Below are positions 37,258 to 38,061 of a stretch of DNA of 46,168 bases, piece after piece. The position numbers were made by a program, and so were the translations under genes. Source of the stretch: a virus; UHGV virus genome UHGV-0285609, one strand, 5' to 3'. Each line of letters starts with the position of its first letter. Positions within the stretch are counted from its first letter, which is position 1. The notes under the pieces are model-generated. The model was not told the DNA's origin, did not search any database, and saw nothing but the letters and a program-made list of their open reading frames with translations.

Positions 37258-38061
37258 ATGGGAAAAATTAAGTTATCAGACATTAAAAGCGAAATCAGCA
37301 AGAGTGGAACAAGTAAAGGAAAATTCATGTTTTTCAAAGAGGATTCTAAAGCAAGAGTAAGATTCTTAACAGATATGGAAGATGGTTTGGAAATCAAGTT
37401 CCATGACAGTTTCGCACTTGGTGTAAACGTTCCATGCCAAGAAGAGTTTGGCAGAGAATGTGAGTATTGTGAGGACGAAAATTTAAGGACAAGAAAAATG
37501 TATGTTTGGAGTGTATATGATTACGAAAGTAAAGAGGTAAAACTTCTGATGGCGGCAGTTAATAACTGTTCACCAGTTCCCGCACTTGCTTCATTATATG
37601 AAACATATGGAACACTTTTAGATAGAGACTATGAGATTAAGAGAATTGGAAAAGGGCAGAACACAACATATTCTGTTATTCCGTTAGACAAAGCAAAATT
37701 CAGAAACAATAAAGTAAAACCACTTTCTGATTCAGCAATTTTGAAATACATTGATAAAGCATATCCAGCAGATAACAATGAAGATTTTGAGGAAGAGGAT
37801 GAACCTAAGAAGAAATCAAACAAAACAAAAACAAAAGCCAAAACAAAAGTAGAAGAAACAGATGATTGGGATGAAGAGGAGGACGAAACAAACGATTATG
37901 AAAGCATGAAGCCACAGGAGCTTTATAAGTTGTGCAAAGAGCGAGATATCGAATGCAAACCAAAGAAGTCAAAGGAATATTATATTGACCTTTTGGAAGA
38001 AGCAGACGAAGAAAATGATTCTGATGATTGGGGCGAAGATGAAGATGATTGGGAGGAATAA
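37258..38061 (+). CDS. single-stranded DNA-binding protein, T4 gp32-like, with Zn-binding H-C-C-C motif, C-terminal HeH motif and acidic tail ending DDWEE
   Basis: N-terminal KGKFMFFKEDSKARVRFL resembles the gp32 N-terminal region (KGFSSEDKGEWK...AVIRFLP). H-x10-C-x7-C-x2-C cluster (FHDSFALGVNVPCQEEFGRECEYC). Acidic C-terminus. AAAGGAGA RBS before ATG 37258. Confidence 0.65.
   Translation: MGKIKLSDIKSEISKSGTSKGKFMFFKEDSKARVRFLTDMEDGLEIKFHDSFALGVNVPCQEEFGRECEYCEDENLRTRKMYVWSVYDYESKEVKLLMAAVNNCSPVPALASLYETYGTLLDRDYEIKRIGKGQNTTYSVIPLDKAKFRNNKVKPLSDSAILKYIDKAYPADNNEDFEEEDEPKKKSNKTKTKAKTKVEETDDWDEEEDETNDYESMKPQELYKLCKERDIECKPKKSKEYYIDLLEEADEENDSDDWGEDEDDWEE

What the first reader, a model, noticed from the sequence alone, without database searches (positions are those of the whole stretch)
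37258..38061. T4 gp32-like zinc SSB whose C-terminal HeH-plus-acidic-tail module is duplicated in an early acidic protein (2870-3565)
The SSB N-terminus matches gp32 (KGKFMFFKEDSKARVRFL versus gp32 KGFSSEDKGEWK...AVIRFLP) and has an H-x10-C-x7-C-x2-C cluster resembling the gp32 Zn site. Its last 50 aa (ELYKLCKERDIECKPKKSKEYYIDLLEEADEENDSDDWGEDEDDWEE) are clearly paralogous to the last 50 aa of the early protein (ELFKMCKERGIKAKTKMKADAYVKLLKAADAESEAEEAEDDEDDDWEI), with nucleotide-level similarity (ggagcttt..aaagagcg...). In gp32 the acidic C-terminal domain is the docking site for replication and recombination partners. A second early protein carrying the same tail twice could be a competitor or mimic that redirects SSB-interacting host or phage proteins, or a recruitment adaptor.
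Basis: seen in the sequence. Interest (0 to 1): 0.7.

Follow-up and report, generated by a model that had tools for sequence, protein, structure and literature searches.

The report
gp32-like phage SSB sharing its tail module
A gut Clostridia phage encodes a distant relative of the T4 gp32 zinc single-strand DNA-binding protein, and the small helical (SAP/HeH) domain and acidic tryptophan tip in its tail also occur in a second, non-SSB protein of the same replication gene block, a pairing kept in hundreds of related phages and open to direct experimental test.

Summary

After a disordered linker comes a 37-aa SAP/HeH fold, then an acidic tip, ...DDWEE. ORF 2870-3565 carries the same HeH twice. 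Similarity is far above composition for the HeH (z = 16) but weak for the acidic flanks (z = 2-3).

The sharing is old: 45% aa and 62% nt identity. The "early" protein actually sits in the replication/recombination block beside RNase H. In 240 database homologues and in the orthologues found in about 100 related phage contigs, its tip is W-x-I-COOH (one W-D-L). The SSB tip is W followed only by acidic residues. In a sister clade both proteins lack Trp together.

My best reading (about 0.4) is a co-evolving tether and docking module. It would bring a companion factor to the same replisome or recombination hub as the SSB, as the shared acidic tails of T7 gp2.5 and gp4 do. Decoy, unrelated DNA-binder and multivalent-scaffold readings stay open. 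This is a new variant of a known kind, of moderate interest.

The parts
37258..38061 (+). Gene for the 267-aa gp32-like zinc SSB with a C-terminal HeH and an acidic-Trp tail
   Evidence: The ORF and its RBS are. It matches PHROG SSB families 14578 (1.4e-11), 1607 and 9721. There are 1862 close database homologues and 472 clusters at 50% identity.
37258..37773 (+). SSB core (aa 1-172): N-terminal helix plus an OB-type beta core with a zinc loop
37402..37470 (+). Putative Zn site: H49, C60, C68, C71 (H-x10-C-x7-C-x2-C)
   Evidence: These residues are 94, 94, 94 and 87% conserved in 125 family members. They align with gp32 H64, C77, C87 and C90.
37774..37890 (+). Disordered charged linker (aa 173-211), including the DDW motif at aa 202-204
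   Evidence: pLDDT is below 50 over residues 174-211. W204 is nearly invariant in 77 homologues.
37897..38007 (+). SAP/HeH mini-domain of the SSB (aa 214-250)
38008..38058 (+). Acidic tip of the SSB, EENDSDDWGEDEDDWEE
   Evidence: A Trp lies in the last 8 residues in 118 of 120 close homologues. The last residue is E or D in 114 of 120.
2870..3565 (+). Gene for the 231-aa companion protein: helical N-domain, HeH1, HeH2 and the DDDWEI tip
   Evidence: The ORF is. There are 1178 database homologues. The AF2 model is beads on a string. Synteny next to RNase H is conserved.
2870..3061 (+). N-terminal five-helix domain (aa 1-64) of unknown fold family
   Evidence: pLDDT is about 80. No family or PDB match was found. 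The domain is conserved in CS266P3, in the L087 clade and in AB434P3, but replaced in Dulem virus 36 and in the MTNKELEM-type relatives.
3143..3256 (+). HeH1 (aa 92-129), signature LYKxCCxRGISSxCKSRKKD
   Evidence: The HMM domain scores 78.8 bits. The signature is conserved in three divergent orthologues. The model has helices 97-107 and 118-130.
3356..3367 (+). Internal DDDW motif 11 residues before the Tyr that opens HeH2, mirroring the SSB DDW-x9-Y
   Evidence: D164, D165, W166 and Y177 are invariant in three divergent orthologues. W204 and Y214 are conserved in the SSB.
3398..3508 (+). HeH2 (aa 177-213). Over gap-free stretches it is 41-44% identical to the SSB HeH
3509..3562 (+). Acidic tip ending DDDWEI-COOH
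   Evidence: W at position -3 and I at -1 occur in 240 of 240 homologues from two clades and in the related IMG/VR loci.
2780..2808 (+). Sigma-70-like promoter (TTGACA, 17 nt, TAATAT, with TG) in the intergenic gap before the companion gene
   Evidence: This is a consensus match only, and the region-wide count of such sites is not above chance.
36931..36959 (+). 12/12 promoter-like site about 300 bp upstream of the SSB gene
   Evidence: Consensus match only.
38120..38141 (+). Terminator-like hairpin with a T-run just after the SSB gene

Best explanation
Shown: 37258-38061 encodes a remote member of the gp32 type of phage SSB, with an OB core and a His-Cys3 zinc loop. Its C-terminal region is not just an acidic tail. 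It consists of a disordered charged linker, a DDW motif, a 37-residue SAP/HeH two-helix domain, and an acidic tip with Trp near the end. The product of 2870-3565 is a non-OB companion protein encoded in the same replication/recombination block, next to RNase H. It has a small helical N-domain, two copies of the same HeH, and an invariant ...DDDW-x-I-COOH tip.

Inferred: the HeH plus acidic-aromatic unit is a portable tether and docking module. The HeH contacts nucleic acid (most likely duplex DNA next to the ssDNA) or a partner surface. The acidic-aromatic peptide docks on a basic site of a replisome or recombination protein, or in the SSB's own DNA groove. Because both proteins carry the module, the companion is delivered to the same place as the SSB and acts as an accessory or adaptor factor. 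This parallels the acidic Phe-ending tails that T7 gp2.5 and gp4 share for the T7 polymerase. The different extreme tips (W-x-I-COOH against W plus acidic residues) suggest related but non-identical docking sites.
For: gp32 type:
- The Zn ligands are conserved and aligned with those of gp32.
- PHROG SSB families match.

HeH fold:

Homology of the module:
- z = 16 against composition-preserving shuffles and BLASTP E = 2e-6.

Functional linkage:
- The gene order 128 aa, 96 aa, companion, about 131 aa, RNase H is conserved directly downstream of polymerase, RecA, exonuclease and RuvC in contiguous relatives.
- The SSB and the companion were found together in 22 of 33 RecA-centred loci with full flanks. 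The misses lie at the locus edge.
- The companion tip is invariant in 240 of 240 homologues.
- The N-domain can be swapped while the HeH and tip are kept.
- Clade-level co-variation: in window-like phages both proteins have this HeH type and a Trp tip. In AB434P3-like phages the companion orthologue has no HeH and a DFDFD tip, and the SSB tip has no Trp.
- The same HeH plus acidic region matches the C-terminal ends of the profiles of other phage DNA-metabolism PHROGs, annotated endonuclease VII and Sak4-like annealing protein.

Precedent:
- The T7 gp4 tail peptide DTDF bound to gp5 was used as the template for docking the gp2.5 tail (PMC12339929).
Against: - No interaction was or could be tested here; no multimer prediction was available.
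- The similarity of the acidic flanks is barely above composition (z = 2-3).
- The two tips differ systematically, so a common docking site is not implied.
- The co-variation rests on essentially two clades, which amounts to few independent events.
- The SSB HeH is nearly charge-neutral, so DNA binding by it is uncertain.
- Pfam SAP and Rho_N models do not reach threshold on the window proteins (Rho_N E = 0.24).
- Foldseek against the PDB gave no significant hit for the full-length SSB model.
Confidence: 0.4

Rival explanations
1. Domain shuffling without a functional link. The HeH is a promiscuous small DNA-binding domain in these phages, and acidic tails are generic. On this reading the companion is an independent DNA-binding or architectural protein, with two SAP-like domains and an autoinhibitory acidic tail as in HMGB-type proteins. 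Its resemblance to the SSB tail would have no mechanistic meaning.
For: - Related phages carry further HeH proteins: a 149-aa protein with an N-terminal HeH, a 160-aa Pfam Rho_N protein before the terminase, and a Zn-ribbon plus HeH protein after RecA.
- PHROG hits place the region in several unrelated families.
- The companion HeHs are net basic (from the sequence).
- The acidic flanks are only weakly similar.
- HeH2 is no closer to the SSB HeH (45%) than SSB-family HeHs are to one another (42-53%).
Against: - The DDW-x9/10-Y spacing before the HeH is conserved in both families.
- A Trp near the end occurs in both proteins in one clade and is lost in both in the sister clade.
- Synteny within the replication block is strict.
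- The invariant C-terminal W-x-I looks like a docking peptide, not a generic acidic tail.
Confidence: 0.25
2. Decoy or competitor. The companion displays SSB-like tails without an OB fold. It would titrate host proteins that dock on SSB tails, or host defence sensors that recognise phage SSB, and so protect or redirect replication.
For: - The architecture is that of an SSB tail without the DNA-binding core.
- The gene has its own host-type promoter-like site.
- The ending DDDW-x-I-COOH has the acidic-run, hydrophobic, x, hydrophobic-COOH layout of the bacterial SSB tip DDDIPF (established knowledge).
- Other members of this SSB family do end in D[LIM]PF.
- Defence systems that sense phage SSB are known: Hna, AbpAB, retron-Eco8 and DARNA (bioRxiv 10.64898/2026.02.22.705581).
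Against: - The companion tip is not the phage SSB tip, and neither matches the DDD[IL]PF consensus.
- The gene sits inside the replication/recombination block beside RNase H, not among typical anti-defence early genes.
- The tails co-vary with the phage's own SSB rather than with any host feature.
- No PADLOC or anti-defence evidence was sought or found.
Confidence: 0.15
3. The similarity to gp32 is convergent. The protein would be a generic OB-fold SSB with an unrelated zinc ribbon, not a gp32 homologue.
For: - No Pfam PF08804 hit was found for the window protein.
- PDB sequence and profile searches were empty.
- Foldseek against the PDB found only weak RPA and PRD1 P12 hits.
- hhalign probability is only 58%.
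Against: - All four metal ligands and the RFL strand align in register.
- One family member touches PF08804 at E = 1e-3.
Confidence: 0.1

Closest known systems
T4/RB69 gp32 (Pfam PF08804; PDB 2atq, 8gme)
   Same: Both have a single OB-type core with a His-Cys3 zinc loop in the same positions, an RFL strand near the N-terminus, a flexible acidic C-terminal region used in gp32 as a partner docking site, and a gene placed in the replication module.
   Different: Identity is only about 14%, with no Pfam, NCBIfam or PDB sequence hit. The zinc-loop spacings are shorter (x10, x7, x2 against x12, x9, x2). The tail contains a folded SAP/HeH domain and Trp-containing tips. The partner polymerase here is DnaE-like (PHP plus pol III alpha), not a family-B gp43. 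No KRKST (LAST) motif was recognised.
T7 gp2.5 and gp4 acidic C-terminal tails ending in Phe
   Same: Two different replication proteins of one phage carry similar acidic, aromatic-containing C-terminal peptides. In T7 these dock on the same polymerase and also mimic ssDNA in the SSB groove.
   Different: The T7 tails have no folded HeH domain and the aromatic residue is the last one. Here Trp is at position -3 and the second protein is not a helicase-primase. No binding data exist for the present proteins.
Bacterial SSB C-terminal tip (SSB-Ct, DDDIPF)
   Same: Both have a disordered linker followed by an acidic run and hydrophobic C-terminal residues that serve as a protein-interaction hub. 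Other members of this phage SSB family end in D[LIM]PF.
   Different: The window proteins end in DDWEE and DDDWEI, not in PF. The OB core is gp32-like and presumably monomeric, not the homotetrameric bacterial SSB fold.
SAP / HeH / Rho-N helix-extension-helix domains (Ku70 C-terminus, PIAS1, DEK, FAN1, Rho N-terminal subdomain)
   Different: The Pfam SAP, Rho_N and HeH models are not reached at threshold. The domains here are flanked by acidic-Trp motifs and carry conserved Cys residues (LCKER..C). Their ligand is unknown.

Membership tests
gp32-type phage SSB (PF08804) | OB-fold core superimposable on gp32 | tested here: met
gp32-type phage SSB (PF08804) | His + 3 Cys zinc ligands at the gp32 positions (H64, C77, C87, C90) | tested here: met
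   H49, C60, C68 and C71 are 87-94% conserved and align to the four gp32 ligands in hhalign. Metal binding itself was not testable.
gp32-type phage SSB (PF08804) | Significant match to the family profile | tested here: not met
   No Pfam hit at E <= 1 for the window protein. One of 37 relatives hits PF08804 at E = 1e-3, below gathering. Profile-profile comparison gives E = 1.4e-5 and probability 58%. The protein is a remote relative, not a member by Pfam's criterion.
gp32-type phage SSB (PF08804) | N-terminal basic cooperativity motif (LAST, K/R-K/R-K-S/T-T) | tested here: inconclusive
   The N-terminus MGKIKLSDIKSEISKSGTSKGK is basic and predicted helical at low confidence, but no KRKST-like motif is evident.
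gp32-type phage SSB (PF08804) | Cooperative ssDNA binding | not testable with these tools
   This needs EMSA or fluorescence titration.
SAP/HeH (helix-extension-helix) domain | Two helices joined by an extended loop, about 35 residues, superimposable on known SAP or Rho-N domains | tested here: met
SAP/HeH (helix-extension-helix) domain | Match to the Pfam SAP (PF02037), Rho_N (PF07498) or HeH models at threshold | tested here: not met
   Rho_N scores E = 0.24 on the companion and nothing matches the SSB. A relative's second HeH type reaches Rho_N at E = 9.6e-5 with 22.7 bits, against a cut-off of 24.9.
SAP/HeH (helix-extension-helix) domain | Nucleic-acid binding | not testable with these tools
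   This needs EMSA with ds and ss DNA.
Bacterial SSB-Ct type interaction tip | C-terminal D-D-D-[IL]-P-F-COOH | tested here: not met
   The window tips are DDWEE and DDDWEI. PF-ending tips occur only in other members of the SSB family.
T7-like shared acidic aromatic tails (works-like comparison, not a family) | Two replisome proteins of one phage with similar acidic, aromatic-containing C-terminal tails | tested here: met
   Both tails are acidic with Trp at position -3 in the window. The feature is conserved in both protein families and changes together between clades. Binding to a common partner was not tested.

The most novel reading that the evidence does not exclude
The alternating order of the elements suggests a specific trans interaction. 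The order is acidic-Trp motif, HeH, acidic-Trp motif in the SSB, and acidic-aromatic, HeH1, DDDW, HeH2, DDDWEI in the companion. This is the signature of a multivalent sticker system in which HeH domains bind acidic-Trp peptides in trans. The companion would then cross-link SSB-coated ssDNA into a phage replication hub or condensate. Alternatively it could tether the clamp-less DnaE-like polymerase to DNA as a processivity factor through its W-x-I-COOH tip. The sister clade, where the companion keeps only a polyampholyte tail with a DFDFD tip, would be the purely electrostatic version of the same device.
Probability: 0.12. Interest if true: 0.75.

Novelty: new variant of a known kind. Interest (0 to 1): 0.5.

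Why it matters
The SSB tail is the organising hub of replication, repair and recombination in every system studied. Here an abundant, uncharacterised family of gut Clostridia phages, with hundreds to thousands of database homologues all annotated as hypothetical, has a gp32-type SSB whose tail carries a folded SAP/HeH domain. The same phages also encode a separate protein that is essentially an SSB tail without the SSB.

If the two share or exchange partners, this would be a clean natural system for asking how tail modules distribute proteins on ssDNA. It would also give functions to two very common hypothetical gut-phage genes. Cultivable relatives exist (CS266P1-4 on Clostridium_AP DA266), so the question can be tested directly. 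At the least, the SSB family deserves a profile of its own, because current Pfam and NCBIfam models miss it.

Tried and rejected
- PDB sequence and profile searches with the single SSB, the close alignment, the diverse core alignment and the companion alignment found nothing significant.
- Foldseek of the full-length SSB model against the PDB found no hit at E <= 1e-3. The disordered regions probably hurt it.
- Pfam and NCBIfam gave no hit for either protein or for the neighbouring small ORFs.
- tblastn of the 56-aa module against GenBank phages found only the five known relatives; the query is too short.
- The search for related loci failed with the 37-sequence core alignment (no conserved stretch). 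With the full companion alignment it was swamped by acidic patterns. Narrower alignments solved both problems.
- Literature searches for HeH or SAP domains in phage SSBs found nothing relevant, and a search for the GPIC phage paper found nothing.
- Recent duplication was rejected: 62% nt identity, 54% at third codon positions.
- A further copy of the module elsewhere in the window was rejected.
- A group I intron explanation for the split polymerase has no Rfam support.

Full report
**What the window is.** The 46,168-bp window has 33% G+C and almost all genes on the + strand. It is a phage genome related to Clostridium phages CS266P1-4 (about 71% nt identity over the replication genes), Dulem virus 36 and, more distantly, Agathobaculum phage AB434P3. 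Every homologue of the two genes of interest is annotated "hypothetical protein" in these records. The genes around the SSB are:
- a primase (35915-36877);
- the SSB (37258-38061);
- a DnaE-like polymerase with PHP and pol III alpha domains, in three ORFs with an HNH ORF in the first gap;
- a RecA/UvsX-like recombinase (42444-43364);
- a Cas4-like exonuclease;
- a RuvC-like resolvase.

The other end of the window holds a small ligase-like ORF, a resolvase, two unknown ORFs, the gene 2870-3565, another unknown ORF and RNase H. In contiguous relatives these two stretches are adjacent. In AB434P3 the order is polymerase 29300, RecA 32035, exonuclease 33054, RuvC 33830, resolvase 35236, the 128-aa homologue 35771, the companion 36168 and RNase H 37123. 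An ENA contig shows the same order. The "early protein" therefore belongs to the replication/recombination block, and the window is merely permuted.

**Checking the observation: the SSB.** The ORF starts at ATG 37258, seven bases after AAAGGAG, and homologues start at the same Met. It matches PHROG SSB families 14578 (E = 1.4e-11), 1607 and 9721. It has no Pfam, NCBIfam or PDB sequence match.

A full-database search with the core (aa 1-180) found 472 clusters at 50% identity. In 125 aligned representatives, H49, C60, C68 and C71 are conserved at 94, 94, 94 and 87%, and R35-F36-L37 at 98, 90 and 90%.

Profile-profile alignment of the family against eight gp32 sequences gave E = 1.4e-5 and probability 58% over 193 columns. 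The gp32 sequences were fetched from GenBank phages after my recalled T4 sequence proved 100% identical over its 240 residues to a T4-like phage. VRFL aligned to IRFLP, and the four ligands aligned to gp32 H64, C77, C87 and C90. One of 37 relatives touches Pfam gp32 at E = 1e-3.

I conclude that this is a remote gp32-type zinc SSB. It fails Pfam's own membership criterion but meets the fold and metal-site criteria.

**Checking the observation: the shared module.** BLASTP aligns SSB 214-247 with companion 177-210 (44%, E = 2e-6) and SSB 209-250 with companion 87-129 (45%, E = 9e-6).

Against 2000 composition-preserving shuffles:

| Segment | Result |
|---|---|
| Whole 68-71-residue module | score 171 vs 45.5 +/- 7.6, z = 16.5 |
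| HeH alone | z = 16.2 |
| Acidic pre-flank | z = 2.9 (12 of 2000) |
| Acidic post-flank | z = 2.0 (90 of 2000) |

The HeH is certainly homologous, whereas the tail similarity is mostly compositional. Two positional features are nevertheless conserved in both families. The first is a DDW motif 9-10 residues before the Tyr that opens the HeH: W204 and Y214 in the SSB, W166 and Y177 in the companion. The second is a single Trp close to the C-terminus.

The companion has the HeH twice but the terminal tip only once. An HMM of the three copies finds no other copy in the window. Nucleotide identity over the HeH is 62%, with 54% at third positions and a longest identical run of 8 nt. HeH2 is 45% identical to the SSB HeH, no more than SSB-family HeHs are to one another (42-53%). 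The sharing is therefore ancient, not a recent duplication.

**What the companion is.** AlphaFold2 with 50 homologues from two clades gives beads on a string:
- a five-helix N-domain (1-64, pLDDT about 80);
- HeH1 (92-130);
- HeH2 (177-218);
- disordered linkers and a disordered tip.

**Comparative anatomy.** All 120 closest SSB homologues keep the HeH and an acidic tail. Of these, 118 have Trp in the last eight residues, at positions -1 to -6, and the last residue is E or D in 114.

The wider SSB family has zero, one or two HeH copies of at least two sequence types. One relative's second type reaches Rho_N at E = 9.6e-5. Tips in the wider family end in DDW, DEW or D[LIM]PF, the last resembling the bacterial SSB tip.

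The companion is very abundant: 1178 and 2093 database homologues for the two clades searched. In 240 of 240 listed homologues it ends with W at -3 and I at -1. The orthologues in the related IMG/VR contigs keep W at -3 and end in I, as DDWEI, DDWDI, DEWDI, ENWDI or DDWNI, with one DWDL exception.

The N-domain is replaceable. Dulem virus 36 and the "MTNKELEM" phages have a different one but keep two HeHs and the tip. This points to the C-terminal part as the constant functional element.

In RecA-centred loci with complete 10-kb flanks, the SSB and the companion were both present in 22 of 33. The nine "SSB only" cases are compatible with the companion lying just past the edge.

In the AB434P3-like sister clade (about 17 loci), the companion orthologue has the same N-domain and the same position. 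It has no HeH. Instead it has a polyampholyte tail ending DDDDFDFD. The SSB of those phages has no Trp in its tip and is not detected by the HeH model. The two tails thus change together between clades, but this amounts to few independent events.

**Mechanism.** Four things are shown:
- a gp32-like ssDNA-binding core;
- SAP/HeH folds;
- disordered acidic-aromatic tips;
- conserved co-occurrence and synteny with the replication, recombination and RNase H genes.

The rest is inferred, by analogy with gp32, bacterial SSB and especially T7. In T7, gp2.5 and gp4 both carry acidic Phe-ending tails that dock on the polymerase; the gp4 tail peptide DTDF bound to gp5 served as the template for placing the gp2.5 tail (PMC12339929). 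I infer that the module is a portable tether and docking device, and that the companion is an accessory factor brought to the same hub as the SSB. I give this about 0.4.

The systematic difference between the tips (W-x-I-COOH against W plus acidic residues) argues against a simple mimic. It suggests related but distinct docking sites.

The rivals are:
- unrelated DNA-binding protein built from a promiscuous domain (0.25), supported by other HeH proteins in relatives and by PHROG hits of the region in unrelated families;
- decoy for host SSB-tail partners or SSB-sensing defences (0.15; context);
- a multivalent HeH and acidic-Trp network that organises a replication hub or tethers the clamp-less DnaE-like polymerase (the novel case, about 0.12).

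**Novelty and verdict.** I found no paper describing a gp32-type SSB with a SAP/HeH domain in its tail or a paired tail-only protein. The parts are known kinds: a gp32-type SSB, a SAP/HeH domain and an acidic docking tail. The combination, its companion protein with an invariant W-x-I-COOH tip, and its abundance in gut phages are new. I therefore rate it a new variant of a known kind, with interest 0.5.

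Noticed in passing
window 2096-2482 (+): This 128-aa ORF has no family match and also ends in an acidic-Trp tip, EEGGGEEWED. CS266P3 has GEWED; Dulem virus 36 lacks the Trp. It lies two genes upstream of the companion in a block (128 aa, 96 aa, companion, about 131 aa, RNase H) that is conserved as far as AB434P3. It may be a third bearer of the docking tip.
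   Followed up: partly
window 38190-42078 (+): The DnaE-like polymerase (PHP plus pol III alpha) is split into three ORFs: 38190-39419, 40306-41316 and 41533-42078. An HNH (I-HmuI-like) ORF at 39600-40088 sits in the first gap, and the second gap is 217 bp. The polymerase is a single ORF in Dulem virus 36 and AB434P3. No Rfam intron family matched, even at E <= 1, so the nature of the insertions is unexplained.
   Followed up: partly
window 34725-35399 (+): This 224-aa ORF at the head of the replication block begins with a SAP-looking stretch, MKVAELKQESRNRGLTLESKGHKFTKRELVDRLNAY. My HeH HMM, Pfam, PHROGs and NCBIfam all miss it. It may be a fourth, divergent HeH in the window.
   Followed up: partly
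L006 (AB434P3) 36168-36725 and 23354-24157; loci L232-L248, L253, L268, L290: In the sister clade the companion orthologue keeps the N-domain but replaces the HeH units with alternating acidic and Lys-rich stretches and a DDDDFDFD tip. The SSB tip there lacks Trp. The two tails change together.
   Followed up: yes
window 8534-8607 and 8692-8763 (+): tRNA-Gln(ttg) and tRNA-Met(cat) lie downstream of a perfect 12/12 sigma-70-like promoter at 8346-8373.
   Followed up: no
window 6853-8282 (+): A ParB-like nuclease or N-terminal methyltransferase-type ORF (6853-7476) is followed by a glucosyltransferase-like ORF (7473-8282, PHROG 842, beta-glucosyl-HMC alpha-glucosyltransferase). AB434P3 encodes a deoxyuridylate hydroxymethyltransferase. 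Together these hint at DNA hypermodification in this phage group.
   Followed up: no
window 36931-36959, 38120-38152: The SSB gene appears to be its own expression unit. A 12/12 promoter-like site lies about 300 bp upstream, inside ORF 36861-37244. A terminator-like hairpin follows immediately downstream and overlaps the next promoter-like site.
   Followed up: no
L107 17307-17756; L149 15050-15532; L175 7265-7867: Relatives encode further HeH proteins: a 149-aa protein with an N-terminal HeH, a 160-aa Pfam Rho_N protein just before the terminase genes, and a Zn-ribbon (MIKC...) plus HeH protein right after RecA that ends FMEGWE. The HeH is a recurrent module in this phage group.
   Followed up: partly
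L148 (Gordonia phage RedWattleHog) 331-1251: A distant member of the same SSB family in an actinobacteriophage also sits directly upstream of a DnaE-like polymerase, so the SSB and DnaE adjacency is very old. That protein appears to lack the Cys ligands.
   Followed up: no
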